64,000 nt of DNA, taken from an uncultured Candidatus Saccharibacteria bacterium (GTDB lineage: Bacteria; Patescibacteriota; Doudnabacteria; UBA920). Location of the stretch: positions 40,174-104,173 of the forward strand of contig CAZDIP010000001.1 in assembly GCA_964505635.1 (NCBI GenBank). Reading direction: 5' to 3'. Shown in pieces: positions 16,948 to 48,695 of the stretch. Every line of letters starts with the position of its first letter. Position 1 is the first letter of the stretch. A program made the position numbers and the translations under genes. The notes beneath the pieces are model-generated. The model was given only the letters and a program-made list of their open reading frames with translations. It ran no database searches and was not told the DNA's origin.

Positions 16948-17445
16948 ATGACAAAGACTGAAGTTGTTTTTATGGCGTGTTTTTGGGTGCTCGGCCTTGC
17001 GGCCTTGAGTACCGAGTGGGGAGGGAGTGCGGAAATGTTCCTTCTGGCTTCGTTCTTGGCTGGCGCGATGTTTGAGATGCTGGGGGAAAATATGCCGCGG
17101 CCCCCGTACTGGAATTTCGTGGGCAGAGGAGCTTTGCGGACTTGGGGGTTTGTTTTTGTCTGCATTCTCGTAATTGTTTTTATGGGTGCGGCAGTGAACG
17201 ACAGGCCTGCGGCCACAGATTTTGTGCGGCAAGCGCTGGGACTCGGAGGTCTGCTGCCCGCCTTCGCGCTGGCTGGCATCGCGTTTTGCTTAGGTCTCGT
17301 AGGGATGGCGGCGGAGGTTCCGAGAAGGATACTTCAGTTAGTGCGAAATCGGTGGCTGGACATACTTTGTTTTGTCTTTGTGTTGACAGCCTTGTACACC
17401 ATCATTCGCGGCGTGTTGTTTTGGCCAGAGCCCGGGCGGCCTTAG
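16948..17445 (+). CDS. Hypothetical GC-rich 4-TM membrane protein (possible foreign origin)
   Basis: MTKTEVVFMACFWVLGLAAL... The longest ORF starts at 16894. An SD-like AAAGGGGGG precedes the ATG at 16948. Composition is markedly GC-rich against an AT-rich genome. Confidence 0.4.
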   Translation: MTKTEVVFMACFWVLGLAALSTEWGGSAEMFLLASFLAGAMFEMLGENMPRPPYWNFVGRGALRTWGFVFVCILVIVFMGAAVNDRPAATDFVRQALGLGGLLPAFALAGIAFCLGLVGMAAEVPRRILQLVRNRWLDILCFVFVLTALYTIIRGVLFWPEPGRP

Positions 17446-17472
17446 AGCCACCCGAACAACCAACTTCAAACT

Positions 17473-17560
17473 ATAAGACCGGCCTTGGGTGCGTCAAGCA
17501 TTCCTACGGCCGGTCTTTGCTATTTTTAAAGGCTCACATGGAGTGAGCCTTTTTGACTAA
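17473..17560 (+). terminator. Two tandem intrinsic terminators (AGACCGGCC...GGCCGGTCT, then AGGCTCAC...GTGAGCCT)
   Basis: Each hairpin is followed by a T-run. Confidence 0.55.
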
Positions 17561-17583
17561 AGGAATTATCAATTGAAATCTGG

Positions 17584-17609
17584 ATCCCGCATCAAGTGCG
17601 GGATGACAG
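17584..17609 (-). terminator. Hairpin (ATCCCGCA/TGCGGGAT) downstream of the hppA 3' end. This is the probable hppA terminator.
   Basis: 8 bp perfect stem immediately 3' of the minus-strand hppA stop. Confidence 0.4.
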
Positions 17610-17620
17610 AACGTAGATAG

Positions 17621-19624
17621 TTAGCCTTTCAAGAATTTTACAAGCAACAAAGCTACAATGTTTATAATTTTGATCATCGGGTTAATTGCCGGGCCGGCTG
17701 TGTCTTTGTAGGGGTCGCCTACGGTGTCGCCGGTAACCGCGGCTTTGTGGGCATCTGAGCCTTTGCCGCCAAAACTGCCTTCCTCAATATATTTTTTAGC
17801 ATTGTCCCAGGCAGCGCCTCCGGTAGTCATGGAAATACCGACAAACAAACCGGTGACTATGGAGCCGACCAAAAGTCCGCCCAAAGCTTCGGCGCCTAAA
17901 ACAAACCCGACTGCCACCGGCACAATTACGGGGATTAAAGCCGGTACCACCATTTCTTTAATTGCGGCTTTAGTAACAATGTCCACGGCTCTGGAATAGT
18001 CGGGTTTGCCCGTGCCTTCCATTATGCCTTTTATTTCCCTAAACTGCCTGCGCACTTCTTCTACCACCGCCTTTGCGGCATTTCCAACCGCAGACATGGC
18101 AATGCTGGCAAAAAGATAGGGGAGGAGTCCGCCTATGAGAAGGCCAACTAAAACGCGGCTGTCGGAAAGGTCAAAAACCGCGCTTATGCCTTCTAACTTT
18201 AATTCCTGGGTGTAAGCGGCAAAAAGTACCATGGCCGCAAGTCCGGCACTGGCAATAGCGTAGCCTTTGGTAACTGCTTTGGTGGTGTTGCCTACGGCGT
18301 CTAACGGGTCGGTAACGTCCCTGACAGATTTATCTAGTCCGGCCATTTCCGCAATGCCTCCCGCGTTGTCGGTTATGGGCCCAAAAGCGTCTATAGCAAC
18401 CACAATGCCGGTTAAGGAAAGCATGGACATAACAGCCAGGGCAATGCCGTACAAACCTGCAAGCTGGTAGGCGGCTAAAATAGCCAGCACAATTACGATT
18501 ACCGGAGCCGCGGTAGACTGCATGCCCACGGCCAGCCCTTTAATAATGTTGGTGCCGTGGCCGGTGGTGGAAGCCTCCGCAATGTCTTTGACCGGAGAGA
18601 AATTTTTGGCCGTGTAGTATTCAGTAATAAACACTACGGCCGCCGTAACAACCAAACCGATTAAAGAGGCGTAATAAAGGTTTATGGGGCTGTAAAGGCC
18701 ATTATTTTGCATTAAGCGCATGGTAATGGGGTAAAAGGCAATAGCGCTTAAAATGCCCGATACCGCAAAGCCTTTGTACATCGCGCCCATAATGTTATTT
18801 GATTTGCCTAAGCGCACGAACCAAGTGCCAATAATGGAAGTAATAATGGAAGCAGCGCCTATTAATAGAGGATAAATTATTGCGTTTGAATTTGAAGAGT
18901 CGGTAAAAATAAACGAGCCTAAAAGCATAACCGCTACAGTGGAGACGGCGTAGGTTTCAAACAAGTCAGCGGCCATGCCGGCGCAGTCGCCCACGTTGTC
19001 GCCCACGTTGTCGGCTATAACGCCTGGGTTTCGCGGGTCGTCTTCAGGGATATTGCTTTCTATTTTACCTACCATGTCTGTTCCTACGTCCGCGCCTTTG
19101 GTAAATATGCCTCCGCCAAGCCTGGCGAATACGGAAATTAAGGAAGAGCCAAAAGCCAGACCCGCTAAGGCAGATAAATCTTTGGTTAAAGCGTAAAAAC
19201 CGGCTACGGACAAAAGTCCCAAGCCTACCACGAACAAGCCGGTTACCGCGCCGCCTTCAAAAGCTAAAGACAGTGCTGCGCCTAGGCCCTTTTTGGCTGC
19301 TTCGGCTGTTCTGACATTTGCGCGCACGGAAATATTCATGCCTATAAAACCGGCAACAGCGGAAAGCGCGGCGCCGATTACAAAAGCGGCCATGGTAGAG
19401 GTGGAAAAGCCTCCAAAAAACATAAGCGCTAAAATAGCCACAGCCACTAAACCCACGGTTTTATATTGCCTGGAAAGATAGGCTTTGGCGCCGGCTTGAA
19501 TAGCTTTTGCTATTTCCAGCATCTTGCCTTCGCCTTGCGGAGATTTTAAGATTTTCCAAATTAAAAACGCCCCGTAAAGTAGCGCTAAAATCGCCGCACC
19601 TAACACATAAGCCATGTAGTTCAT
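17621..19624 (-). CDS. hppA: Membrane-bound proton-translocating pyrophosphatase (H+-PPase)
   Basis: 667 aa multi-TM protein with [15 protein letters not shown] and [14 protein letters not shown] motifs. Confidence 0.9.
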
Positions 19625-30474: not shown

Positions 30475-30903
30475 ATGTTACCTGACGAAAAATCTCAACG
30501 TTTTGTAGCTATTTTGAATAAAAAAATTGAAACAGGCAAACTTATGAATGCCTTAGGTCATATGACAGCTGGCTTGGCCGGTGGTTTTGGCAAAGGTCAG
30601 GAAATGCACTTTTTGGAGTACAAAGATAAAGATGGCGGTGTTCACCCGTATATATCGCACTTTCCTTTTATAGTTCTCAAAGCGGAAAATTCTAATCAAA
30701 TTCGAAAGATCAGGAATGAAGCCTTATCGCGTAATGTAATGTTTACAGACTTCACTAGCACAATGACTGTTGGAACTTCGGCAGAGCAGCGGGAACGAAC
30801 AAAAAATACGCCGGAATTAGAATTGGAGTATTATGGCATTTGTTTGTTTGGCCAGACCGATACTTTAAAAGAGTTTACAGGGAAATTTTCCTTATTTAAT
30901 TAA
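30475..30903 (+). CDS. Hypothetical protein (DUF2000-like)
   Basis: 142 aa. The MLPDEKSQRFVAILNKK...NALGHMTAGLAGG pattern is reminiscent of DUF2000. Confidence 0.4.
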   Translation: MLPDEKSQRFVAILNKKIETGKLMNALGHMTAGLAGGFGKGQEMHFLEYKDKDGGVHPYISHFPFIVLKAENSNQIRKIRNEALSRNVMFTDFTSTMTVGTSAEQRERTKNTPELELEYYGICLFGQTDTLKEFTGKFSLFN

Positions 30904-31867: not shown

Positions 31868-32435
31868 GCTGAAAAAAATATTCAAATGGTTTTTTATATG
31901 TTTAGCCTCGCTGTTTTTGCTAAACGCGCTTACCATCGCGTTTTTTGCCAACTTCAGGCCGCAAATTAAGCAGGCCGACGCCATAATAGTTTTGGGCGCG
32001 GCCATAAACACGCCCGCGCTTTACAACCGCAGTCTTAAGGCTTTGGAGCTTTATGAGCAAAAAAAAGCGCCTTTACTGCTTTTGTCCGGAGGAAGAATAT
32101 CGCCCAAATTTATTTCCGAGGCTACCTACATGCAAAGAACCATGCAGTCCAAAGCCACCGCCCCTTTGAATTTGGTTTTAGAGGAAGAATCTTCCAATAC
32201 CTTTGAAAATTTTAAATTTACCAAGGAAAAGTCCGGAGAGGTAAAAAGCCTAATTGTGGTAAGCGATGAGTTCCATTTGGCCAGGGCGGTTTTGGTTGCT
32301 TTAAAAAGCGGTTTTTATCCGGTTTACTGGGACGCGCCAGAGCCTAATTACTACAAGAACAAAGAGTTAACGTTTTATTATATTCGTGAATTTTTTGCCA
32401 TGTTTTCCTATTTGCCGAAATTTGTTTGGAAATAG
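31854..32435 (+). CDS. YdcF/SanA/ElyC (DUF218) family protein
   Basis: N-terminal TM, then DAIIVLGAAIN...LLLLSGG and VVSDEFHLARA. Confidence 0.65.
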   Translation: MPKVRLKKIFKWFFICLASLFLLNALTIAFFANFRPQIKQADAIIVLGAAINTPALYNRSLKALELYEQKKAPLLLLSGGRISPKFISEATYMQRTMQSKATAPLNLVLEEESSNTFENFKFTKEKSGEVKSLIVVSDEFHLARAVLVALKSGFYPVYWDAPEPNYYKNKELTFYYIREFFAMFSYLPKFVWK

Positions 32436-32440
32436 GAAAA

Positions 32441-32482
32441 GCCGGCGGTTCGCTTACGTGATGCGTGCCGCCGGCTCTTAGT
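32441..32482. terminator. Bidirectional terminator hairpin (GCCGGCGG...CCGCCGGC) between convergent ydcF-like and xylA genes
   Basis: 8 bp GC stem flanked by A/T runs on both sides. Confidence 0.5.
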
Positions 32483-32520
32483 TAGTTTGCCTATTGTTTT
32501 GCCGCTATTCGGCGGCAGAA

Positions 32521-33756
32521 CTAAATCGAGTAGGTGCGACCTTTGTGTTGGTCGATCAGGATCTGGAAGAGTCGGTGGCCGATCAATTCATGCAGCGTCA
32601 GTAGTTCCTTGTGCGCTTCCGTGATGGCCGCAACATCGCGCGGGTCAGAAACTTCGCCGCCTGCTTTCAATGCATCGGTGGCTTCGCGGATGACGGGATC
32701 TTCCAGGACTTCTCCCGCCATCTCCCAAAGAGTAATGAAGCGATCGACGGCGGTGGGGAAGCTGACAGCAAATACTCCCCAGTTGCTGGTGGTGCGCGGC
32801 GGCTTGTAGTCAAGGTTGAACGGTCCGTTGTAGCCGTGGCTGCGAAGCAGGATAAGCACATTTAGCCAATCGAGAGGATTCACCAACCCGACGGCGATGT
32901 CGACGTCGTGTTTGAGGCGATAGCCGTCATTGATGTCGAAGTGCCACAGCTTACCTGCGCTGATAGCGCGGGCAAGGGCTGCGCGCGGGGCGCCGCCCCA
33001 CATCAGTTCGTGCAAATATTCCGGGTTGAGCCCCACCATTTCGGGATGCTTCAGCAGGCCACTGCCGATGAAAGCGAGCATGGAGTCGGAAGTGGGCAGC
33101 AGAATTTCGGCCTGGGGTTCAAACGGCTTGGCCTCCATGCAGTGCTTCAGTGTGGGTTGCCCCAATTTGCCGGCGAGTTCAATATCGGCTTCGCAGGCGG
33201 CATTGAGACCCTCGGCGTACCACTGCAATGCTTGGGTCTCTTCCACGGCTCCCTGGATCTGGTAGCCGAAGGAGCCGGGCCAGTAAACAGCGAATCGCGC
33301 GCCCAACTCGTGGCCGATTTTGACAGTATTCTTGAGGCGCTCGGCGGCGTATTGGCGAACGTAGGGGGATTCCGCGGCGGGTCCGGCGGAAAACACGGCG
33401 TGGTAGAAAGTTTCGGTGGTGACCATGGAGCAGGCGAGTCCGTTGGCCTTAAGTGTGTCGCCGATGCGTCCGACGATTTCATCCTGCTTGCTGGTGAAGA
33501 GATTGCCCGCTGGGATGACGTCCGTGTCATGGGTGGCCCAGTAGCCAATGCCGATTTCGGCATAGTGGCGGATGACTTCTTCGAAGGTGACGGGCTTGCG
33601 GGTGGGGGCGTGAAAGAGAGCTTGGCCTTCATAGGCGCCGGCCCATTGGGGCCCCGTGATGAAGTACTTGCGGCGCTGGTCCGGAGAGTAAGAACCGCCG
33701 CACGAACGCACTAGGCGTTCGACCAGCGGAAGCTGGTACTCTAATTTAATAGGCAT
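32521..33756 (-). CDS. xylA: Xylose isomerase. The gene is GC-rich and its composition is foreign to this genome.
   Basis: MPIKLEYQLP...FITGPQWAGAY...WATHDTDVIP...AVYWPGSFG...MEAKPFEPQAEILLPT...LNPEYLHELMWGG...WHFDINDG...LDYKPPRT aligns motif-for-motif with class I xylose isomerases. A perfect SD AGGAGGA precedes the ATG at 33756. The ORF track extends to 33852. Confidence 0.85.
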   Translation of the reverse strand: MPIKLEYQLPLVERLVRSCGGSYSPDQRRKYFITGPQWAGAYEGQALFHAPTRKPVTFEEVIRHYAEIGIGYWATHDTDVIPAGNLFTSKQDEIVGRIGDTLKANGLACSMVTTETFYHAVFSAGPAAESPYVRQYAAERLKNTVKIGHELGARFAVYWPGSFGYQIQGAVEETQALQWYAEGLNAACEADIELAGKLGQPTLKHCMEAKPFEPQAEILLPTSDSMLAFIGSGLLKHPEMVGLNPEYLHELMWGGAPRAALARAISAGKLWHFDINDGYRLKHDVDIAVGLVNPLDWLNVLILLRSHGYNGPFNLDYKPPRTTSNWGVFAVSFPTAVDRFITLWEMAGEVLEDPVIREATDALKAGGEVSDPRDVAAITEAHKELLTLHELIGHRLFQILIDQHKGRTYSI

Positions 33757-33959
33757 AGTTTTCCTCCTATGCTTTTTGTTTTCCGTCTGTCTTCGGAAAG
33801 TAAATAAATTGCCTGAAAATAGGGAGACAGACCCCTTTAAGCAAAAAATCAAGCCAATGCTTGACCTTTTATCTTAATGGTTTTTTCGTGCCTTTGTCAA
33901 TTATGGTTTTTAATTGTGAGTAAAAATGTAGTTGACGATTTTGTATTAAAGTGTTAAAC

Positions 33960-34268
33960 TATATTTAGTTTCTCACAGAAGCGGTTTCCGCCTCTGGAGG
34001 ATAATAAATATCCAATGACAGTTGGTCCCCGCCCCTCGTTGAGAGGCGGAGTTAATTCCCATTAAGGGAGCCCACCGAGGAATCTAATTAGCGTTTAGCG
34101 CAAAAGCGCCTAGCGTTTAGAATTTCACTCGGCTTGCCCGAGTTTTTTATTAGGATATTTAACTCAAAGGTCGATTTATAGAAACTTGTAACAAGTAATT
34201 AATAACTTATAACAGATTTCGGAGCAGGTTACTTGTTATAAATTATTAGTTACAAGTTAATTCAAATT
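33960..34268 (+). promoter_or_regulatory. Candidate rplJ (L10) leader: structured 5' UTR with a terminator/attenuator hairpin at 34128-34150 and AT-rich inverted repeats before the start codon
   Basis: GCGGTTTCCGCCTC...GAGAGGCGGAG helices, the repeat TTAGCGTTTAG twice, and CTCGG-CTTGC-CCGAG followed by TTTTTTATT. Confidence 0.4.
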
Positions 34269-41347: not shown

Positions 41348-41381
41348 GTAGTATCAAGTAGTTAGTATTAAGCGAAAATCC

Positions 41382-41771
41382 ATGAATGAGTCATCTAATA
41401 AAATTAAATCATTTACTGATTTAATAGCTTGGCAAGAAGGTCATAAGCTAGTTTTAATGACTTATCAGATGACAAAAAATTGGCCAAACGAAGAACAGTT
41501 TGGACTTATTAGCCAAATTCGCAGAGCAGCGGTTTCTATTACTTCCAATATTGCCGAAGGCTTTAGTAGGAGTTCTTGGAGGGACAAGGTACACTTTTAT
41601 TCTATATCCGTAGCATCAGTGTCGGAGTTACAAAACCAGTCCTTGGTTTCTAAAGATTTAGGCTATACCGCAAAAGACATTTTTCAAATCTACGCAGGCT
41701 TGACAGTAAAAGTAAATAAGTTAATAAATGGATTAATAAAAAGTTTAAAGCAAAATAATAAAGATGCTTAA
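41382..41771 (+). CDS. Four-helix-bundle protein (TIGR02436 / 23S rRNA IVS protein family)
   Basis: LIAWQEGHKLVLMTYQMTKNWPNEEQFGLISQIRRAAVSITSNIAEGFSR. Confidence 0.7.
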   Translation: MNESSNKIKSFTDLIAWQEGHKLVLMTYQMTKNWPNEEQFGLISQIRRAAVSITSNIAEGFSRSSWRDKVHFYSISVASVSELQNQSLVSKDLGYTAKDIFQIYAGLTVKVNKLINGLIKSLKQNNKDA

Positions 41772-41803
41772 TACCAGCTACTTGCTACATTATACTAACT
41801 GAC

Positions 41804-41989
41804 ATGAACGAAGCAATAAAAATAAAACAAAATATTTTAAAACAGCTCCAGGGTTTATGCGCGCACTGTGTCACTAATTCAGTTAAGCCTCACAATTGTC
41901 CCGTTAAGCAGATTTCCTTGCGCATTCAGTCCCTTCGCGGCGTGCCTTTGGTGGTCAACAGCCAGTTTAAAGGCATGCTTTGGACATAA
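41804..41989 (+). CDS. Small Cys/His-containing hypothetical protein (61 aa)
   Basis: CAHC...HNCP could bind metal. Weak. Confidence 0.25.
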   Translation: MNEAIKIKQNILKQLQGLCAHCVTNSVKPHNCPVKQISLRIQSLRGVPLVVNSQFKGMLWT

Positions 41990-42039
41990 AAAGAGGGCTG
42001 CCTTCGTTCCTGGTGGGAAACTTGGGCAGCCCTGAGGGA

Positions 42040-42335
42040 AGCGTTCCATTGGGCAAATATTATTCCAACCCGCTTTCGCGCGGCTCAGTATGGCTGCTCC
42101 ATAGAGCGACAATCCGTCATGCGACGGGAAAGTCTTGCCATAAGGCCAGTTTTTGAAAGCGGGTCGCTCGCGGGAGCAAGCTTATAAGCTTAATGAGAAC
42201 GTTATGGATCCCCCTTTTATTGGCGGGTTGCCACTGCTTGTTAGGCAGCTCTCTACGGCAACCCGCCCTCTCGTCGGAGTACATATATTTTATTCTAAGG
42301 TGATTTTTTAGTCAAACAAATTAAAACCCCCTAAA
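42040..42335 (+). ncRNA. GC-rich structured segment with an RNase P RNA CR-I-like motif, a possible 5' part of an RNase P RNA gene
   Basis: CGTCATGCGACG hairpin, then GGGAAAGTC-TTG-CCATAAGGCCAG at 42126-42149, compared with the consensus P3-GGAAAGUCCGGGCUCCAUAGGGCAG. Also GGAGCAAG. A terminator hairpin follows at 42323-42352. Confidence 0.3.
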
Positions 42336-42352
42336 TTTTAGGGGGTTTTAAG
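42323..42352. terminator. Hairpin AAAACCCCCTAAA-TTT-TAGGGGGTTTT. It is the terminator for the minus-strand GIY-YIG gene and possibly for the plus-strand RNA.
   Basis: The stop codon of the GIY-YIG gene lies inside the hairpin. T-runs on both sides. Confidence 0.55.
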
Positions 42353-42580
42353 TAACTTTTGTTTTTTTGTTTTAGGCCATTTTTTTATTTCAGCCTCACG
42401 TTTTAAGGCCTTTATTTTGGTTTTGAATTTTTCAAAGTAGATTATTTTTCCGCCGCCGCGGCTTTTTACATATTTAGACCCCTTGCCTTGGTTATGAGCC
42501 AGTTCCCGTTTTTTAAGGTCATTGGTAATGCCGGCATAAAGGGACTTGTCTTTGCATAAAAAAAGGTAAAAGTAGTACAT
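42338..42580 (-). CDS. GIY-YIG nuclease family protein (YhbQ/UPF0213-like), 80 aa
   Basis: MYYFYLFLCKDKSLYAGITNDLKKRELAHNQGKGSKYVKSRGG. The ORF-track N-terminal extension (42581-42853, TTG start) is GC-rich and not protein-like, so it was trimmed. Confidence 0.75.
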   Translation of the reverse strand: MYYFYLFLCKDKSLYAGITNDLKKRELAHNQGKGSKYVKSRGGGKIIYFEKFKTKIKALKREAEIKKWPKTKKQKLLKTP

Positions 42581-42905
42581 ACAGGTATTATAACAATTTT
42601 TAAATTCAGTATTGTTTAAAATAGGAAGGCGCGCGTTTGCTTTGTGGGGCAAAACGCGCGCCGGAATGTGGCATACATCGCACGGGCATGTGCCCTTGTT
42701 TTTGTTACGACCGGGGAGTTTACCCGTGTAATGTATACCTTGGAGGAGACTATGAATCCTCTTTATAAAAAATGCGGGTTTGCGGCCAAGACAGGCTCTT
42801 GATTCCCCTTGCAAAGGAACTTGGTAGAAACCGCAAACCCGCTTCTCTCTCAAACGAACAGGAATAAAATGACTTTAGCATAGTTTTTGTAAATGGTAAA
42901 GAAGT
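42581..42905. ncRNA. GC-rich structured segment with RNase P-like motifs. Orientation unresolved.
   Basis: Read on the minus strand, CACGGGTAAACTCCCCGG (rc of 42709-42728) resembles the P15/L15 motif CACGGUAAACUCCACCCGG. Read on the plus strand, ACAGGAATAAAATGACTTTAGC (about 42857-42878) resembles the P4 3' strand ACAGAA..GGCUUA and can pair with GAAAGTC at 42126. Confidence 0.25.
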
Positions 42906-42914
42906 TTAAAAAGC

Positions 42915-42950
42915 AAAAAACCCCACATTGCAATGGGGATTGAAGAAATT
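42915..42950 (-). terminator. Intrinsic terminator for the minus-strand gene 43025..43537
   Basis: rc: CCCCATTGCAATGTGGGG hairpin followed by TTTTTTGCTTTTT. Confidence 0.5.
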
Positions 42951-43024
42951 TTTTATCTACAAAACCTTGAACTGCCAAAATCTAACTAAGGTAAGGAGGT
43001 TTATAAGAAAAGGTTATTTAAGTT

Positions 43025-43537
43025 TTACAAATAGCGAGCTAACAGCAAAAACACCACAGCCAACACCAATCCGCTAACATAAGATTTTGGCAAGTAATTG
43101 TTTTTGGAAATTTTTATCCATTTTTGATGCCACCAAATATTGCCATTAGGACCTTTCAGAAGCTGTTTTAGGGAGTCAAAATACCAATTAAAAACAAACC
43201 AGGAAAAATCCTCAACAAAACAAACAGCAGCAAAAATAGCCAGTAACAAAAAAATATTTTGGGTCAAAAGGAAATATTCAGCTATTAAAATTATTGGAAT
43301 AATAACCCCGTACATTACCAGTCCATAACCAAAAATATAGGGCACATTAATGGCTTTACAGATTGCCACCATGACTGGATTATTTTGACCAATGATTTTT
43401 CCATACCACTTGTCTTTAGGGTGACCCGCGCCCCAGCCTTTGTCTTTCTCAATAATAATTTCTAACAAAGCTACCGGCCAGGCAATTAGTAGCACGTTGA
43501 TAATAAAAAATAGGTAGATGTTCATTTGGATATCCAA
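43025..43537 (-). CDS. Hypothetical multi-TM membrane protein
   Basis: 170 aa with 4-5 TM helices. Confidence 0.5.
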   Translation of the reverse strand: MDIQMNIYLFFIINVLLIAWPVALLEIIIEKDKGWGAGHPKDKWYGKIIGQNNPVMVAICKAINVPYIFGYGLVMYGVIIPIILIAEYFLLTQNIFLLLAIFAAVCFVEDFSWFVFNWYFDSLKQLLKGPNGNIWWHQKWIKISKNNYLPKSYVSGLVLAVVFLLLARYL

Positions 43538-43572
43538 CTGAATTGGAAAGCTGAATTTAAAATTTTAAATAT

Positions 43573-44625
43573 TTATGGTCTTCCTTTATCCCGTTTATTT
43601 TTTAAATAATCAACCGCAAAAAGTGCAAAGGGTAACTCTTTGGTGTTTAGGTGCAAGAGGCTAGATCGACTGCCCTCCGCAACAAAATCGAAAGGAATAA
43701 AATCTGCGGAGCCGGGTTCTTTTACAGCCTGTTTGCGAAGCCATTCCATAGTTTTTTCAAATACTTCCTTGGTCAATCCGCCTTCCCCAGTCCTTCTAAT
43801 AAGCTCAGCTGCTATTAGCGAGGTTTTTAAGAAGAATAGATTACGTTTGTATTCCTGACCTTTTCTAATATAATCGGGCTGCATTCTCATTCGTTTTTCA
43901 GACTCAAATAGTGAGTTTACATTCCTATCCGGGTGATGGGTTCTGGATTTTTCTAGATCAAAACCCCAGCTCGCTAATTTATGTGGATAATAATTTGCGG
44001 TTGCAGTAATCAATCCTTGAAACTTTGAATCATTGGCAATGATGCCTCTACGGCTTCTGACTTTTGTTAAAGTGTTTATTACTGCGGCCGGACCATGTAA
44101 AAATTTAAAAGCATGTTCTTTGTATACTTTTTGTAAATCGCCGCTAGAGGCCGCATCCTCATAAATGTTCGGTAATGGTCGCGTGCTATCTCTGCCAAGG
44201 TTGGGACTGGCTTTTGTATCTTTTATTTTTCTGGTTCTTTGTAAGAAACTTTTTTCTCTTCCCGAAAAAATCTTGGCTACATCTTCACTACTCGGTACTT
44301 CCAAACAAGAAGTCCAGTCACCTTTATAAAACCAATCTTCAATTAACCGAATAGCCGTGTTAATAAACCTCTGATCTTCTTTAGTTTCTATATCTACCTC
44401 GCCAAAGCTTTCGTATCTAAAAAAATATTTTATCCTATCCCAAATGTGGGCTTCTAAAGCATTAATATCCAAATTATCTTTTGGAAACGCCTTGACTACG
44501 TTGGCTAGAGAGGTTGCATAATTTCGAATAAAACTGCGCAAATCCAATTTTTCTGGCTCCCCTTTAGACTTAGTGTCGTTTTCAAGAAGATTTTGGTAAG
44601 CTTTGAAAATTTCAGGTCTTTTCAT
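43573..44625 (-). CDS. Hypothetical protein
   Basis: 350 aa ORF. No motif recognised. Confidence 0.5.
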   Translation of the reverse strand: MKRPEIFKAYQNLLENDTKSKGEPEKLDLRSFIRNYATSLANVVKAFPKDNLDINALEAHIWDRIKYFFRYESFGEVDIETKEDQRFINTAIRLIEDWFYKGDWTSCLEVPSSEDVAKIFSGREKSFLQRTRKIKDTKASPNLGRDSTRPLPNIYEDAASSGDLQKVYKEHAFKFLHGPAAVINTLTKVRSRRGIIANDSKFQGLITATANYYPHKLASWGFDLEKSRTHHPDRNVNSLFESEKRMRMQPDYIRKGQEYKRNLFFLKTSLIAAELIRRTGEGGLTKEVFEKTMEWLRKQAVKEPGSADFIPFDFVAEGSRSSLLHLNTKELPFALFAVDYLKNKRDKGRP

Positions 44626-44872
44626 ATGTTTTTATAAGTATAGCGTATAGTTTGAATTTCTGAAAATTTTGGCAAAAGTAGAATACCAACAGAGATTTAA
44701 ATGATTTTTGCGGCAGTTTCATCCCACAGGGTATGATGAAAAAAGTCGGGGAATCTAAGTAGTAAAGCCTGAAGGGTCTACTACGGGATGCAGTTAAACC
44801 CCAATCGGGCTTCTCAGCTCCGGTGTCATTACTTAAACAAAACACTTCCACCATTAAGGTGAAAGTTTTTTT

Positions 44873-44948
44873 GGTAGCGCTACCCCGCACAACTTTCCGC
44901 CAGTTGGCGGAAAGTTGTGCGGGGCGCAGCGGGGAATTCCCCGAACCC
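44873..44948 (-). other. Partial duplicate of the tRNA-Glu 3' end interrupted by a perfect 19 bp-stem palindrome (candidate att remnant)
   Basis: Plus-strand TGGTAGCGCTAC + [CCCCGCACAACTTTCCGCC-AGTT-GGCGGAAAGTTGTGCGGGG] + GGGGAATTCCCCGAACCC, compared with the tRNA-Glu plus-strand TGGTAGCGCTACGGGGAATCGAACCCCGA at 46774. Confidence 0.4.
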
Positions 44949-44989
44949 AAAACCATGAAAAAGACCCGACGCAAGGTCGGGTACTTTTC

Positions 44990-45022
44990 ATGGTAGACCA
45001 AGTCGAGACAGGTGGAAAACTT
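44990..45022. repeat. Left copy of a perfect 33 bp inverted repeat (ATGGTAGACCAAGTCGAGACAGGTGGAAAACTT)
   Basis: Exact reverse complement of 48617-48649. Verified base by base over 29 nt, with about 2 nt more on each side. Confidence 0.8.
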
Positions 45023-45089
45023 TTCTCGCATTGGTAAAAGAGATTTATAATTTGTTTGTTACCAAGCCTATTGTCCCTAATGCTACTTT

Positions 45090-45686
45090 TTAGGTTTTGT
45101 TTTTTTGTTTATTTAATATGTCTGAAATTTGATAGCCTTTATAAATTATATGGCTATTTTCTCGTTCATAAATTTCTTTTTTCTCTTTTGAAGTAGAAAT
45201 CTCTCCGTCTAAGTATAAAGGATGGATGCCTATAGTAAACCAAATGGCTTTATATAACTCATCAATTTCATATAAGGTTAGGCTGTATTCTTTATGAACA
45301 CCAGAAGGTCGGTCATAATAAATTATCCAGCCATCATTTATTTTCATACTTTCATTTATATCCTCATTGTTATCTGGATAGCGAATTTCTTCCCATTGAT
45401 GCAATCTTTCTATAGTTTTTCGTTCGTCATATAGACTTAAATCCGCCTTTGGATACATTTCTTTAAATTTTTCCCAAATAGCTGGCAAATTATGACCAAG
45501 CTTTTCTTTTATAACTTTTTTTAGCAACATTTCAATAGCGTGATGAAAAAGATTTGCAGCTATAGGAATTAAACCGCCAAAAGTTGCCCATCTGGCTGCT
45601 AAATAGTATTGCACAGATATAGTCATATGCCGGTCTCGTGTAGTTTTGTCGTCCATAAATTTGTAATTACACCTTAAGACTTTCAT
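45090..45686 (-). CDS. HEPN-like domain protein (putative)
   Basis: LFHHAIEMLLKKVIKE and ERKTIERLHQ (Rx6H-like). The start may be M21 at 45626 (MTISV), which would avoid overlapping the kinase gene. Confidence 0.4.
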   Translation of the reverse strand: MKVLRCNYKFMDDKTTRDRHMTISVQYYLAARWATFGGLIPIAANLFHHAIEMLLKKVIKEKLGHNLPAIWEKFKEMYPKADLSLYDERKTIERLHQWEEIRYPDNNEDINESMKINDGWIIYYDRPSGVHKEYSLTLYEIDELYKAIWFTIGIHPLYLDGEISTSKEKKEIYERENSHIIYKGYQISDILNKQKNKT

Positions 45687-46650
45687 CTAACCAAGAGTTC
45701 TCATAAAAGTCAGAAATTTTATCTGCTGCTTTTTTTAAAGCACGCCCTTCCCATAAACCATTTTGGTGGTCAATTAAAGTCTCTAAAAATGGATCTAGGT
45801 AATAAAGCCTTACTCTGTTCGCTAAGTTAGGAACTTGAAATAGTGTCGGGTAATACTTTTTTAGCCAACCAAGTTCTTTAGTCATTTGGTAATCGCCGTA
45901 TAGGTGTTCTATTTTTTCTTCTACTGTAAATTTTGGGCGATGAAAGGTGTCCATAATTTTCCAAAGTTCGTAGTCCCTTGGTGCTTGGCAAGCCCAGTCT
46001 AAATCTATAATTCCGGTAAGCTGACCGTTTTTATGGAAAATATTTTCTAAATGTATATCTTGGTGAACCATTACGGCCGTGCCAGCTTCATCTAAGCTGG
46101 AAATGTTATTTTTGTAAAATTGCACTAACATATCGATTTTGTCAGCAATTTCCTTTGGAAGCTTGTCTTTTTGGATTAACTTAATTTCTTTTTCCGTTAA
46201 CCTTTCTACTGCATACTTTAAGTTGTTAAAAGAAGTATAGGAAACAATAGGCATACTATAACTGTCGCAGCTAATAGAGTGCCAAAGTTGTAGCTGTTCG
46301 GCTAGTTGTTCTATAAGGCTTTCTTTTTGACTATTGCTAAATGACATCCAATCGTAGACTAAATTATTACCTACTACCATTTCCATTAATATATAACGAT
46401 TGTCTTCAAATGAACCAAAGTCAATTATTTTAGGAACTTTTGCTCCTTTGCTTAAAAGTTTAGCTGTTATTTCTTGTGCTGGTTTTAAAATTTCATGTTC
46501 ACCTTTACCTTCCACCTTTAAAGCATATTTACCGCCTAGATTGTAGACACGATTAATAGAACCGCTTGAGAAACGTTTGGTTTCAAGCGATTGGTCTAAG
46601 TTATTTTTGTTAATTACAGACTGAATAATTTTAGAATATATGTCGTCCAT
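45667..46650 (-). CDS. Phosphotransferase enzyme family (APH / protein-kinase-like) protein
   Basis: VMVHQDIHLENIF (Brenner motif), IIDLDWA and a Gly-rich N-lobe. 327 aa. Confidence 0.6.
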   Translation of the reverse strand: MDDIYSKIIQSVINKNNLDQSLETKRFSSGSINRVYNLGGKYALKVEGKGEHEILKPAQEITAKLLSKGAKVPKIIDFGSFEDNRYILMEMVVGNNLVYDWMSFSNSQKESLIEQLAEQLQLWHSISCDSYSMPIVSYTSFNNLKYAVERLTEKEIKLIQKDKLPKEIADKIDMLVQFYKNNISSLDEAGTAVMVHQDIHLENIFHKNGQLTGIIDLDWACQAPRDYELWKIMDTFHRPKFTVEEKIEHLYGDYQMTKELGWLKKYYPTLFQVPNLANRVRLYYLDPFLETLIDHQNGLWEGRALKKAADKISDFYENSWLDESLKV

Positions 46651-46773
46651 TTATAAATTATAGCCCAAATTACTAATAAATAAAACAAAAAAGTTCTCCA
46701 CTTGTAGCATTGGAAAACTCTTGTGAATCAATATTGATAGTCAAAATTGTAACTTTTTAAACAAAAATTCATT

Positions 46774-46848
46774 TGGTAGCGCTACGGGGAATCGAACCCC
46801 GATTTGGTGGATGAGAACCACCTGTCCTAACCATTAGACGATAGCGCC
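46774..46848 (-). tRNA. tRNA-Glu (anticodon CTC)
   Basis: rc: GGCGCTA-TC-GTCTAATGGTTAGGACA-GGTGG-TTCTCAT-CCACC-AAAT-CGGGGTTCGATTCCCCG-TAGCGCT-A-CCA. Confidence 0.85.
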
Positions 46849-46976
46849 AAATTCCTAACAATTCTAGCAGTTATGAAAAAAATACTCAATAAACGAAAAT
46901 AAGTTGTTTTTTTAAAAAGCCTATTGCTCAAGCAAAGGAAAATGGAAAACTTTTTTGTTTAAAACAAAAGCAAATT

Positions 46977-47005
46977 TTGACAAAAGCTTAAAAATCGGCT
47001 ATACT
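46977..47005 (+). promoter_or_regulatory. Near-consensus sigma70 promoter (TTGACA-N17-TATACT) driving the RT leader
   Basis: TTGACA at 46977-46982, a 17 nt spacer and TATACT at 47000-47005. Confidence 0.55.
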
Positions 47006-47011
47006 GTGGTC

Positions 47012-47298
47012 ATCGGGGTGGAAACCGAATAGGTTTTAACACCGACCAAAGGAATTTAACCTTTATAACAAATCGGAGAGCCAGAGCGCCCTAGCCATAA
47101 GGCAGACAGATATGAGCAGATATGCTATAATAAAGTTAGAGACCTTCCGCTTTGAGACAAACATTAAAATGTTCGCCGACAAAGTGGGAAATGCCTTTAA
47201 AAGAATACCAAGTAAAGTTGGAGCTATTAAAGAGCACTCCATTTGGAAGCTGATTAGGCGCTTGAGTTATGTAATCAGCCTCCTCCCAAATTAAAAAT
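47012..47298 (+). ncRNA. Candidate RT-associated noncoding RNA / structured leader (~285 nt) between the promoter and the RT start codon
   Basis: No SD before the RT. Contains a 12 bp hairpin GGAAGCTGATTA...TAATCAGCCTCC at 47245-47283, ending 15 nt before the RT ATG. Only a weak 60 aa ORF lies inside. Confidence 0.35.
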
Positions 47299-48609
47299 AT
47301 GGAAAATTTATTGAGCCGGCTTGGCTCTTTTATTTTGCTTGAGAAACAGGCAAAAAACGTTAATAAGCAAATTAAACGGAATGCGAAAAAGAATAAAATC
47401 GCCAATCCGCGCTTTTTTAACTTGGAAGAACTTAAGACATTACCAGAAAAAATATTAAATAAAAGTTTTACATTTGATTTACTCCGTGCCAAGACTATAC
47501 CAAAGCCTGGCAAAACCAAACGAAGACCGCTCTCAATACCAACGCCGAGAGACAGGGTCGTTTATGGTGTATTAAACAGACTGCTAAAACCTGCTCTTAT
47601 TGGGTATTTAAATCAAGCGCCTTCTTATGGAATATTAAAAAAACGCGGCGTGCATGGAGCGTATACTGAGATAAAAAAGCATTTAGCAGATGGTTGTCAT
47701 TATGTTCTAAAAGTTGATATCCAAGATTTTTTTAATAAAATTGACAAGGGAATTTTATCATTTATTTTATTTCCAAGAATTGCCAATACCGCTGACTCCT
47801 CAATTAACCATTTAATTAGGGACTGCTTAAAATTTGAATATAAGTCTTTACCGGAAGAGGAGGAGTTAAGAAAACTTTTTCCTACAAAATATTATGGCAT
47901 CGCACAAGGCAACGCTTTATCTCCACTATTTGCTGATGTCTACCTAAAGCTATTTGACTCGGAACTTAAACGTTCCGGTTTTAAAGTTGTTAGGTATGTT
48001 GATGATTTAATTGTTTTTACAAAAACAAAAAAGGAACTTTATCCAGCTTACATAAAAATTAAAAACTGTCTTAAGCCTCTAAAGCTAACTATAGATAAAT
48101 ACAATACGGGTAAATGTATAGCAACTGATATTACTCGGCATGTTGAATTTTTAGGCGTAGACATTGGACCGGGACAGATTTTAACAATACAGGGAAATAG
48201 GGTGCAAGCACTTAGGAGTAAGCTCTCGGCTTTATTAGATAGATTCTATAACAAGCGCTTTGTTCATATTTCCTATAAAGAAAAAATGGACGGTATTAAT
48301 GGACTGATTGAAGGTTGGGCTGGCGCGTATAGTATGTGTGACCGTGCTTATTTAGCAGATTTGTATGAGAAGCTAAATAAAATGATAAATAGTAATATTG
48401 ACAGCCTTTTAAATCGCGGGCTTATTGTCCAAAAAGAGCACGATTATCTATTTAATAATGTAAGACGTTTCCATTTACCTACTGGCAAAAAACGAAAGAT
48501 TACGAGGAAGAAAAAATCTCGCTATAGTTACGGAGTCAAGCCATCAAAAGGCCAATTGAAGATTTGGAGTGGCGGTATTTATAATTTAAGAGTAAATGTC
48601 CTTTACTAG
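47299..48609 (+). CDS. Reverse transcriptase (retron/group-II-like RT domain with a thumb; no endonuclease domain)
   Basis: RT motifs: RRPLSIPTPRDRVVYGVL (1/2), SYGILKKRGVHGAY (2a), YVLKVDIQDFFNKI (A), GIAQGNALSPLFADVYL (B'), RYVDDLIVF (C) and EFLGVDI (7), then a GLIEGWAGAYS thumb motif. 436 aa. Confidence 0.85.
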   Translation: MENLLSRLGSFILLEKQAKNVNKQIKRNAKKNKIANPRFFNLEELKTLPEKILNKSFTFDLLRAKTIPKPGKTKRRPLSIPTPRDRVVYGVLNRLLKPALIGYLNQAPSYGILKKRGVHGAYTEIKKHLADGCHYVLKVDIQDFFNKIDKGILSFILFPRIANTADSSINHLIRDCLKFEYKSLPEEEELRKLFPTKYYGIAQGNALSPLFADVYLKLFDSELKRSGFKVVRYVDDLIVFTKTKKELYPAYIKIKNCLKPLKLTIDKYNTGKCIATDITRHVEFLGVDIGPGQILTIQGNRVQALRSKLSALLDRFYNKRFVHISYKEKMDGINGLIEGWAGAYSMCDRAYLADLYEKLNKMINSNIDSLLNRGLIVQKEHDYLFNNVRRFHLPTGKKRKITRKKKSRYSYGVKPSKGQLKIWSGGIYNLRVNVLY

Positions 48610-48616
48610 AGCCAAA

Positions 48617-48649
48617 TAAGTTTTCCACCTGTCTCGACTTGGTCTACCA
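48617..48649. repeat. Right copy of the perfect 33 bp inverted repeat, 8 nt after the RT stop and before the RT terminator
   Basis: AAGTTTTCCACCTGTCTCGACTTGGTCTACCAT is the rc of 44990-45022. Confidence 0.8.
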
Positions 48650-48669
48650 TCATTTAGATAATCCCTTCT

Positions 48670-48695
48670 AAACCGCTAATTTGGCGGTTTTTGTA
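48670..48695 (+). terminator. Intrinsic terminator after the RT (AACCGC-TAATTT-GCGGTT followed by TTTTGTAATTT)
   Basis: Seen directly in the sequence. Confidence 0.5.

What the first reader, a model, noticed from the sequence alone, without database searches (positions are those of the whole stretch)
45090..46650. HEPN-like protein plus APH/protein-kinase-like gene pair beside the RT: a possible effector and sensor pair of a defence island
Two co-directional overlapping genes read divergently from the RT. One is a putative HEPN-fold protein (LFHHAIEMLLKK, Rx6H) and the other a kinase-fold phosphotransferase. Both lie inside the IR-bracketed segment. HEPN RNases and kinases recur as effectors or regulators in abortive-infection and RT-associated defence systems. 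Together with the ncRNA-RT this looks like a composite, possibly novel, defence locus.
Basis: inference. Interest (0 to 1): 0.5.

Follow-up and report, generated by a model that had tools for sequence, protein, structure and literature searches.

The report
Unlinked kinase and solo HEPN genes
Both genes are real, a small-molecule kinase of the APH family followed by a stand-alone HEPN-fold protein, but they are never found together or beside a reverse transcriptase anywhere else, so this looks like a chance juxtaposition in a small variable islet next to a tRNA gene, not a defence system.

Summary
ORFs 45090-45686(-) and 45667-46650(-) are real, co-directional genes that read away from the RT gene (47299-48609,+). 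They lie inside a 58-nt inverted repeat with a 33-nt perfect core.

The family instead carries the AF0298-type variant signature: E52x3K56, H65 and R102, with no His after the Arg.

The system-level interpretation fails its own test:
- None of 104 loci with HEPN-like homologues (511 kb) holds an APH or an RT, and no neighbour recurs.
- Six independent contexts of APH orthologues (62-82% identity) hold no HEPN or RT.
- The closest RT homologue (45%) sits beside AAA_21/RloB genes instead.
- The flanking genes in the window are housekeeping.

The pair lies in a low-GC 1.9-kb stretch between tRNA-Glu and a 14-nt copy of that tRNA's 3' end, which looks like an integration scar. Verdict: ordinary, with new members of known families.

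The parts
45090..45686 (-). Stand-alone HEPN-fold protein, 198 aa (188 aa if it starts at ATG 45656). It is a divergent branch of the classical HEPN family PF05168 (HEPN-T, AF0298-like variant).
45667..46650 (-). APH/choline-kinase-family phosphotransferase, 327 aa, with a complete catalytic site.
   Evidence: PF01636 at 1.5e-17, 64.6 bits. K45, H196, D198, N203, D216 and D218 are invariant in 20 orthologues. Orthologues reach 85% identity in related uncultured bacteria. Scores are far below the cut-offs for named resistance APHs.
46774..46848 (-). tRNA-Glu(CUC) gene lying between the kinase gene and the RT leader. Its 3' end faces the kinase gene.
   Evidence: ARAGORN and Rfam at 62.6 bits.
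44870..44883 (-). 14-nt direct copy of the tRNA-Glu 3' end (TTTGGTAGCGCTAC on the + strand). It is a putative integration scar closing a 1.9-kb islet (44884-46771) that holds just the two genes.
   Evidence: This 14-mer occurs only at 44870 and 46772 in the 64-kb window. The repeat is 19 of 22 nt with its flank. A possible T-arm continuation follows a 42-nt palindrome (shuffle p about 0.08). The pair has GC 0.33, in the lowest 4% of same-sized windows.
44964..44982 (.). Bidirectional terminator-like hairpin. It is the likely end of the kinase-HEPN transcript.
   Evidence: Terminator scan, found on both strands. It forms part of a long stem in the minus-strand fold.
44990..45047 (.). Left arm of the inverted repeat, in the 3' untranslated stretch after the HEPN-like gene.
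   Evidence: the repeat finder I1; blastn.
48593..48650 (.). Right arm of the inverted repeat. It overlaps the last 17 nt of the RT gene and lies 20 nt before the RT terminator (48670-48690).
47299..48609 (+). Free-standing group-II-intron-like reverse transcriptase. It is context only, with no evidence of linkage to the pair.
   Evidence: RVT_1 at 3.8e-24. Group II RT/maturase model at 161.6 bits, below its 300-bit cut-off. PADLOC generic RT at 3.5e-43 and RT_UG17 at 9.1e-35. Only four homologues were found.

Best explanation
These are two unrelated genes that sit side by side, and are probably co-transcribed, in a small low-GC variable islet at the 3' end of tRNA-Glu. They are not parts of one system and are not partners of the RT.

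(1) The upstream gene encodes an APH/choline-kinase-family enzyme. It uses ATP to phosphorylate a small molecule whose identity is unknown. Its orthologues in related bacteria sit among other small-molecule-modifying genes: a second APH, NUDIX hydrolases, an aminoglycoside-nucleotidyltransferase-like gene, P-loop kinases and an MFS transporter.

(2) The downstream gene belongs to a widespread but sparsely distributed family of ~190-aa stand-alone HEPN proteins. It has the classical HEPN four-helix core and the AF0298/AbiV-type variant site: Ex3K on helix 2, an invariant His in the helix-2/helix-3 insert, and an invariant Arg at the end of helix 3 with no His after it. By inference it binds RNA, and probably cleaves it, as a solitary stress- or conflict-related protein.

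Shown here: gene reality, folds, motifs, absence of co-occurrence, the tRNA-end repeat and low GC. Inferred: the kinase substrate class, HEPN RNase activity, co-transcription and the integration history.
For: Kinase: PF01636 at 64.6 bits, with catalytic residues invariant in 20 orthologues. Orthologue neighbourhoods are a second APH (L025, L027), an RNase_T protein (L026, L116, L117), NUDIX/His_Phos (L113, L114), and Aminoglyc_resit NTase plus AAA kinases plus MFS (L115).

No linkage: APH and RT profiles gave 0 hits in six-frame ORFs of 104 HEPN-homologue loci totalling 511 kb, 43 of them at least 4 kb long. The only recurrent 'neighbours' are shadow ORFs of the gene itself. HEPN, APH and RT profiles never co-occur in the APH or RT loci. 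The closest HEPN relative has a different upstream gene. DNA similarity to APH orthologue loci stops at the APH stop codon. In L025 the APH orthologue lies 0.9 kb from a DUF2000 gene, whereas that gene's 77% homologue in the window is 15 kb away.

Islet: the tRNA 3'-end 14-mer occurs only twice, in direct orientation, and brackets exactly these genes. GC is 0.33 against a window mean of 0.395. Flanking genes are housekeeping.
Against: - The two genes are tightly packed (a 20-nt overlap or a 10-nt gap), which often marks functional operons.
- Neighbours of some HEPN-like homologues are conflict-type genes: a NotI endonuclease, a weak Apea-HEPN hit, DUF2971, Schlafen/AlbA_2 and transposases. A defence role for the HEPN gene alone therefore remains open.
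- Both divergent transcription units end with the same 33-nt element. This explanation leaves that fact unexplained.
- Only two close (Patescibacteria-type) relatives of the HEPN gene were available, so linkage within the immediate lineage is thinly sampled.
- The islet contains no integrase, and the direct repeat is short.
Confidence: 0.7

Rival explanations
1. A lineage-specific two-gene module in which the kinase regulates the HEPN protein. For example, phosphorylation could keep an RNase inactive, by analogy with MntA AMPylation of HepT in type VII toxin-antitoxin pairs.
For: The genes are tightly juxtaposed and co-oriented, with one likely terminator after both. In other systems HEPN toxins are controlled by covalent modification (PMC7641770, abstract). 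The HEPN family has no recurrent protein partner elsewhere, so any control would have to be recruited locally.
Against: The pairing occurs only in this organism; L024 is the same sequence. APH orthologues at 62-82% identity live without the HEPN gene, and the 69% HEPN relative lives without the kinase. The kinase has the small-molecule APH/ChoK signature and small-molecule-type neighbourhoods. More than 1,000 family clusters are solo proteins, which argues against an obligately toxic protein needing an antidote.
Confidence: 0.1
2. One reading: a composite defence locus in which the RT, with its upstream RNA, works together with the HEPN protein as effector and the kinase as sensor or regulator.
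Against: No co-occurrence was found from any of the three sides. A tRNA gene separates the units. The RT homologue's locus lacks both genes and lacks the inverted repeat. PADLOC has no model hit for the HEPN protein and only weak partial PD-T4-6 hits for the kinase.
Confidence: 0.05
3. The HEPN-like protein is non-catalytic: an RNA- or nucleotide-binding protein, or the toxin of an RNA-antitoxin (type III, AbiV-like) pair that uses the strongly structured RNA just downstream.
For: The canonical His of Rx4-6H is absent. Some HEPN domains lacking the motif are proposed to be non-catalytic binders (PMC3710099). AbiV is a ~200-aa HEPN RNase neutralised by an adjacent hairpin RNA (10.1101/2024.05.05.592566). 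The 250 nt after the gene fold with z -9.8.
Against: The invariant H65, R102, E52 and K56 constellation matches the proposed alternative active site. In 68 non-redundant homologue loci the 200 nt downstream are no more structured than control regions, with median z 0.05, so the structured RNA is not a family feature. The AbiV models in Pfam and PADLOC give no hit. The AbiV antitoxin lies upstream of its toxin, where this locus has coding sequence.
Confidence: 0.12

Closest known systems
Classical HEPN family PF05168 (HEPN-T), AF0298-like subgroup (PDB 2hsb; also TT1696 1ufb and the sacsin HEPN 3o10)
   Different: The window protein does not reach any Pfam threshold; only some family members do. 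The family carries a ~70-aa C-terminal extension (a beta-hairpin plus extra helices) and an invariant HH pair (H48, H49). No nucleotidyltransferase partner is present.
HepT/MntA (HEPN/MNT) type VII toxin-antitoxin pairs
   Same: A HEPN-fold protein encoded directly next to an enzyme that could in principle modify it.
   Different: The neighbour is an APH-type kinase, not a minimal nucleotidyltransferase. The canonical Rx4-6H motif is absent, and the pairing is not conserved.
AbiV (lactococcal stand-alone HEPN RNase with an RNA antitoxin)
   Same: Similar size (~200 aa), no protein partner, and a HEPN fold. [quoted passage not shown]
   Different: There is no sequence-model match to AbiV. This locus has no non-coding stretch upstream, and the family as a whole has no structured RNA downstream.
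Aminoglycoside/choline-kinase phosphotransferases (PF01636; APH(3') and APH(2'') structures 3ham and 3uzr)
   Same: The same fold and the same catalytic motifs: the beta-3 Lys, HxDxxxxN and DxD.
   Different: The relationship to any characterised enzyme is only distant (E about 3e-6 to solved APHs; 50.7 bits against a 205-bit cut-off for APH(3')). The substrate is unknown.
RT-associated HEPN or effector systems (AbiA RT-HEPN fusion, retron type IX, DRT10/UG17 with a SLATT protein)
   Same: An RT gene with a leader RNA lies within 1.7 kb of a HEPN gene. The RT scores 118 bits on the UG17 model.
   Different: There is no fusion, no conserved adjacency and no SLATT gene. The RT scores better on generic and group-II-type models.

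Membership tests
HEPN superfamily | All-alpha four-helix up-and-down bundle of the HEPN type | tested here: met
HEPN superfamily | Canonical Rx4-6H motif at the end of helix 3 | tested here: not met
R102 is invariant, but positions +4 to +6 are never His.
HEPN-T, AF0298-like variant (PF05168) | Ex3[KR] on helix 2, a basic residue at the motif position, and an alternative conserved His in the helix-2/helix-3 insert (PMC3710099) | tested here: met
   E52, K56, H65 and R102 are each present in 42 of 42 members. Helix positions come from the model. The published description was read.
HEPN-T (PF05168) | Score at or above the Pfam gathering threshold (22 bits) | tested here: inconclusive
   The window protein gives no hit at E<=0.1. 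Family members P0017 (25.0 bits) and P0016 (22.1 bits) pass, and 8 of 42 reach E<0.01.
HepT/MntA type VII toxin-antitoxin | An adjacent minimal nucleotidyltransferase gene | tested here: not met
   The neighbours are the APH gene and a non-coding stretch. ORFs 43573-44625 and 44612-45031 have no Pfam hit. No neighbour recurs in 104 loci.
AbiV | Match to AbiV models, and an upstream RNA antitoxin | tested here: not met
   No Pfam or PADLOC hit. The upstream sequence is the kinase coding region. Downstream structure is not a family feature.
APH / choline-kinase phosphotransferase family (PF01636) | Pfam gathering score, and catalytic Lys, HxDxxxxN and DxD motifs | tested here: met
   64.6 bits against a 23.2-bit cut-off. 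K45, H196, D198, N203, D216 and D218 are invariant in 20 orthologues.
Named aminoglycoside-resistance APH enzymes | NCBIfam family cut-offs | tested here: not met
   The best score is APH(3') at 50.7 bits against a 205-bit cut-off.
PD-T4-6 defence kinases (PADLOC) | Full-length match to a PD-T4-6 model | tested here: not met
   Only 60-85-residue partial matches were found, at no more than 24 bits.
RT-associated defence systems with a HEPN or kinase partner (AbiA, retron type IX, DRTs) | Conserved adjacency or fusion of the RT with the partner gene across genomes | tested here: not met
   0 RT hits in 104 HEPN-homologue loci. No HEPN or APH hit in RT-homologue loci L028-L031, and no RT hit in the APH loci.
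DRT10 / UG17 | A tripartite ncRNA + SLATT-5 protein + RT arrangement, with the SLATT gene adjacent to the RT | tested here: not met
   Definition read. No SLATT hit among the neighbouring ORFs tested. The RT scores higher on generic and group-II models.
KEN-type kinase-HEPN proteins (RNase L, Ire1) | A protein kinase domain and a HEPN domain in one polypeptide | tested here: not met
   These are separate genes, and the kinase is APH-type.
tRNA-flanking integrated islet | A direct repeat of the tRNA 3' end at the far boundary | tested here: met
   The 14-mer occurs only at 44870 and 46772, in direct orientation. The repeat with its flank is 19 of 22 nt.
tRNA-flanking integrated islet | An integrase or recombinase gene inside the islet | tested here: not met
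   The 1.9-kb stretch holds only the two genes and non-coding hairpins.

The most novel reading that the evidence does not exclude
The identical 33-nt element placed just before the terminators of both divergent transcription units (RT on the + strand, kinase-HEPN on the - strand) is a functional tag. It could be a shared 3' recognition or priming site that makes both mRNAs substrates of the RT. Alternatively, the two arms could be recombination sites of an invertible 3.6-kb segment. Either way the RT, kinase and HEPN genes would form a lineage-specific unit that comparative genomics cannot detect, because it is unique to this organism.
Probability: 0.05. Interest if true: 0.55.

Novelty: new member of a known kind. 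Interest (0 to 1): 0.15.

Why it matters
Mainly as a caution. A HEPN gene, a kinase gene and an RT within 3.5 kb look like a defence system, but the co-occurrence tests show that they are independent genes. This keeps the locus out of lists of candidate new RT-linked systems.

A minor positive result is that the HEPN-like gene belongs to a sizeable family without a dedicated Pfam, NCBIfam or PADLOC model. The family has about 1,340 clusters at 50% identity and consists of stand-alone ~190-aa HEPN-T-type proteins with an invariant HH-E-K...H...RYPD signature. It could merit its own family model and a biochemical test of the proposed alternative HEPN active site.

Tried and rejected
- **Direct profile hits for the HEPN-like protein.** Pfam, NCBIfam, PADLOC and PHROGs gave none. 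The assignment needed family-level hits and structure.
- **Sequence profile of the family against PDB.** No HEPN hit even at E<=10.
- **AFDB50 fold search.** The library was unavailable.
- **Conserved neighbours of HEPN homologues.** Clustering of flanking ORFs produced only shadow ORFs.
- **APH or RT near HEPN homologues.** None by tblastn or by profile search.
- **HEPN/MNT pair.** Rejected, because there is no nucleotidyltransferase.
- **AbiV-like type III pair using the downstream hairpins.** Rejected as a family trait.
- **DRT10/UG17.** Rejected, because there is no SLATT gene.
- **Group II intron.** No intron RNA in Rfam, even at E<=1.
- **Known ncRNA in 44626-45089 or in the RT leader.** None in Rfam, and neither is conserved at the DNA level in the RT-homologue locus.
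- **Inverted repeat around the RT homologue in L028.** Absent.
- **Rare longer family members as clues from fusions.** Uninformative: one looks like read-through from a MetRS gene and the others have no domain hit.
- **Source organism.** It could not be named: the exact look-ups returned no record name.

Full report
**Observation.** The window has two co-directional minus-strand ORFs at 45090-45686 (198 aa) and 45667-46650 (327 aa). Both have many homologues in public data, so they are real genes. The 20-nt overlap depends on the start codon. The public gene call for the identical protein (P0001, 188 aa) uses ATG 45656, 10 nt after the kinase stop codon, and homologues align only from about residue 12 onward.

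The RT gene (47299-48609) is on the plus strand. Between it and the kinase gene lie a tRNA-Glu(CUC) gene (46774-46848, minus strand) and a promoter-like site (11 of 12 matches, 46977-47005) followed by a ~290-nt leader.

**The kinase.** The 327-aa protein matches Pfam APH (PF01636) at 1.5e-17, 64.6 bits against a cut-off of 23.2. It has weaker hits to choline kinase, protein kinase and fructosamine kinase. It is far below the NCBIfam cut-offs of named resistance enzymes (best APH(3') at 50.7 against 205). It is only distantly related to solved APH(2'') structures (E about 3e-6).

Orthologues at 62-85% identity are common in uncultured, Patescibacteria-type assemblies. In an alignment of 20 of them, the ATP-binding Lys (K45), the HxDxxxxN catalytic loop (H196, D198, N203) and the DxD metal site (D216, D218) are invariant. 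It is therefore an active phosphotransferase of the small-molecule (APH/ChoK) type. PADLOC gives only short partial matches to PD-T4-6 kinase models, at no more than 24 bits.

**The HEPN-like protein.** The protein itself hits nothing in Pfam, NCBIfam, PADLOC or PHROGs. A homologue search found 50 relatives. In an alignment of 42 of them, the invariant residues are H48, H49, E52, K56, H65, W71, L95, I101, R102, Y103 and P104.

R89 lies in an insertion absent from 41 of 42 members, and H96 is His in only 14 of 42. The conserved Arg is R102, which follows the helix at 91-97, and no His occurs 4-6 residues after it.

This pattern matches what Anantharaman et al. (PMC3710099) describe for the AF0298-like HEPN-T group and for AbiV:
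- The His of Rx4-6H is absent, but the basic residue is kept.
- An alternative conserved His comes from the insert between helices 2 and 3. Here that is H65, between helix 40-56 and helix 67-77.
- An Ex3[KR] motif sits on helix 2. Here that is E52-x3-K56.

A full profile search of 1.84 billion representatives found 1,340 clusters at E<=0.001 and 507 at E<=1e-30. Almost all are 175-205 aa and matched end to end. This is thus a distinct family of stand-alone proteins without its own family model. Rare longer members gave no informative fused domain.

(a) HEPN side. I fetched 22 genome loci, 80 metagenome loci, one viral locus and the contig of the closest relative. Profiles of the APH orthologue group and of the RT group, searched over all six-frame ORFs of these 104 loci (511 kb; 43 loci at least 4 kb long), gave zero hits. 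The APH profile does detect distant APH paralogues at 32-34 bits, so it is reasonably sensitive. All-against-all clustering of ORFs within 2.5 kb of the gene found no recurrent neighbour, only alternative-frame shadows of the gene itself.

Immediate neighbours are heterogeneous. They include a NotI endonuclease, a weak Apea-type HEPN hit, DUF2971, Schlafen/AlbA_2, an FHA-trypsin protein, ABC transporters and transposases. The closest relative (P0002, 69% identity) follows an unrelated predicted membrane protein.

(b) Kinase side. Six independent contexts of orthologues (62-82% identity) show other neighbours:
- a second APH paralogue (L025, L027);
- a 780-790-aa RNase_T-domain protein (L026, L116, L117);
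- NUDIX and histidine-phosphatase genes (L113, L114);
- an aminoglycoside-nucleotidyltransferase-like gene, two P-loop kinases and an MFS transporter (L115).

None has a HEPN-family or RT-family hit. DNA similarity to these loci stops at the kinase stop codon. In L025 the orthologue lies 0.9 kb from a DUF2000 gene, whereas that gene's 77%-identical homologue in the window is 15 kb away at 30475-30897.

(c) RT side. The RT has only four homologues. The best one (P0101, 45% identity, Candidatus Buchananbacteria) is preceded by an ABC ATPase, an AAA_21 ATPase and an RloB protein. It has no APH or HEPN gene within 8 kb and no bracketing inverted repeat.

**Local setting.** The genes on both sides of the 41.4-48.7 kb stretch are housekeeping: Dus, LexA, GH1, EamA, a ROK kinase, ScpB and ribosomal protein L10. 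There is therefore no extended defence island.

The two genes have GC 0.31 and 0.34. Together they are at 0.33, in the lowest 4% of same-sized windows, against a window mean of 0.395. The 14-mer TTTGGTAGCGCTAC, which is the 3' end of tRNA-Glu on the plus strand, occurs exactly twice in the 64-kb window: at the tRNA (46772) and at 44870, in direct orientation. With flanks the match is 19 of 22 nt. A possible T-arm continuation (GGGGAAT..CGAACCC) follows a 42-nt palindrome, with a shuffle p of about 0.08 on its own.

The two copies bracket 44884-46771, which contains just the kinase gene, the HEPN-like gene and their 3' untranslated hairpins. This is the usual signature of an element integrated at a tRNA 3' end, although no integrase is present. 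In the Buchananbacteria locus the homologous tRNA-Glu is likewise followed by variable genes.

A terminator-like hairpin at 44964-44982 is the probable end of the kinase-HEPN transcript, and 48670-48690 is that of the RT.

**Interpretation.** The best-supported reading is a lineage-specific juxtaposition of two independent genes in a small tRNA-flanking variable islet (confidence about 0.7). The kinase most likely phosphorylates a small molecule. This is inferred from its family signature and from the neighbourhoods of its orthologues. The HEPN-like protein most likely binds RNA, and probably cleaves it, through the alternative H65/R102/E52/K56 site proposed for AF0298-like HEPN-T proteins. 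This too is inference, since no activity was tested.

The scattered occurrence of the HEPN-like gene across many phyla, its lack of a fixed partner, and its occasional restriction-modification, HEPN or transposase neighbours fit a solitary conflict- or stress-related protein. They do not tie it to the kinase or to the RT.

**Rivals.**
- A local kinase-HEPN regulatory pair (0.10) rests only on the tight spacing.
- The RT + HEPN + kinase composite (0.05) fails the linkage test.
- A non-catalytic or RNA-antitoxin (AbiV-like) version of the HEPN protein (0.12) was considered because the 250 nt downstream fold with z -9.8, and because AbiV is neutralised by a hairpin RNA. However, in 68 non-redundant homologue loci the downstream 200 nt are no more structured than controls, with medians of 0.05 and -0.13.

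**What remains unexplained.** Because the repeat is inverted and the two units are divergent, both transcripts would carry the same 33-nt sequence (AAGUUUUCCACCUGUCUCGACUUGGUCUACCAU). It lies 7 nt before the kinase-HEPN terminator stem and 20 nt before the RT terminator stem. No other copy was found in the window or in any fetched locus. This could be a recombination scar, the arms of an invertible segment, or a shared RNA element. I give the functional readings about 5%.

**Novelty and score.** Both proteins are new members of known families, and the proposed system is not supported. Interest is 0.15. The only mildly useful product is the delineation of a ~1,300-cluster stand-alone HEPN-T-like family that lacks its own model.

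Noticed in passing
window 44990-45022 and 48618-48650: The 33-nt perfect inverted repeat sits just upstream of the terminators of two divergent transcription units. Both RNAs (kinase-HEPN and RT) would therefore end with the same 33-nt sequence. No further copy exists in the window or in the fetched loci.
   Followed up: partly
window 44626-45089: A 464-nt intergenic stretch that is GC-richer (0.43) than its surroundings. The minus-strand fold of 44840-45089 has z -9.8. It contains a perfect 20-bp palindrome (44883-44924), GGGGAATTCCCC, a bidirectional terminator-like hairpin (44964-44982) and a second terminator-like hairpin (44844-44866). There is no Rfam match. The 139-aa ORF across it (44612-45031) has no Pfam hit.
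   Followed up: partly
window 46683-46703 / 46940-46960; also 45014, 46712, 48619: A 21-nt inverted repeat (90%) flanks the tRNA-Glu gene. Its core motif GGAAAACTT / AAGTTYTCC recurs in the large inverted-repeat arms and once more next to the tRNA. It may be a protein-binding or recombination motif.
   Followed up: no
window 46977-47298: A near-consensus promoter (TTGACA-17-TATACT) is followed by a ~290-nt leader before the RT start. The fold z is -3.0. The sequence is not conserved in the locus of the 45%-identical RT homologue, and there is no Rfam hit.
   Followed up: partly
L028 5784-9257: The closest RT homologue (Candidatus Buchananbacteria, 45% identity) lies directly downstream of AAA_21 ATPase and RloB genes (an AbiL-like pair) and an ABC ATPase. 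The whole block follows a tRNA-Glu homologous to the one in the window. The RT lineage may therefore live in tRNA-Glu-flanking variable regions.
   Followed up: partly
window 41772-43024; L028 3176-3700: About 1 kb around a short GIY-YIG ORF (42338-42613) has no convincing ORFs. In L028 a GIY-YIG ORF sits between a tRNA-Glu-like 5' fragment and the intact tRNA-Glu, with 21-37-nt repeats on both sides. This suggests a homing-endonuclease or intron-like insertion.
   Followed up: no
window 41382-41771: A 23S rRNA-intervening-sequence protein (PF05635, 3.9e-32; weak bAvd-like hit) is flanked by a 23-nt inverted repeat (41351-41373 / 41766-41788). It lies 5.5 kb from the RT. The RT's best model matches are generic and group-II-type.
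   Followed up: no
window 43025-44625: Two minus-strand genes lie downstream of the islet: a 350-aa protein and a 170-aa predicted multi-pass membrane protein. Neither has a hit in Pfam, NCBIfam, PADLOC or PHROGs.
   Followed up: partly
window 17000-19000 and 32000-34000: Two stretches with GC 0.50-0.53 stand out in a ~0.39 GC window. Neither has an rRNA or other Rfam hit at gathering thresholds.
   Followed up: no
window 30475-30897: This DUF2000 gene is 77% identical to the one that lies 0.9 kb from the APH orthologue in L025 (GCA_038203095.1). In the window the two genes are 15 kb apart, which indicates rearrangement or relocation of the kinase gene.
   Followed up: partly
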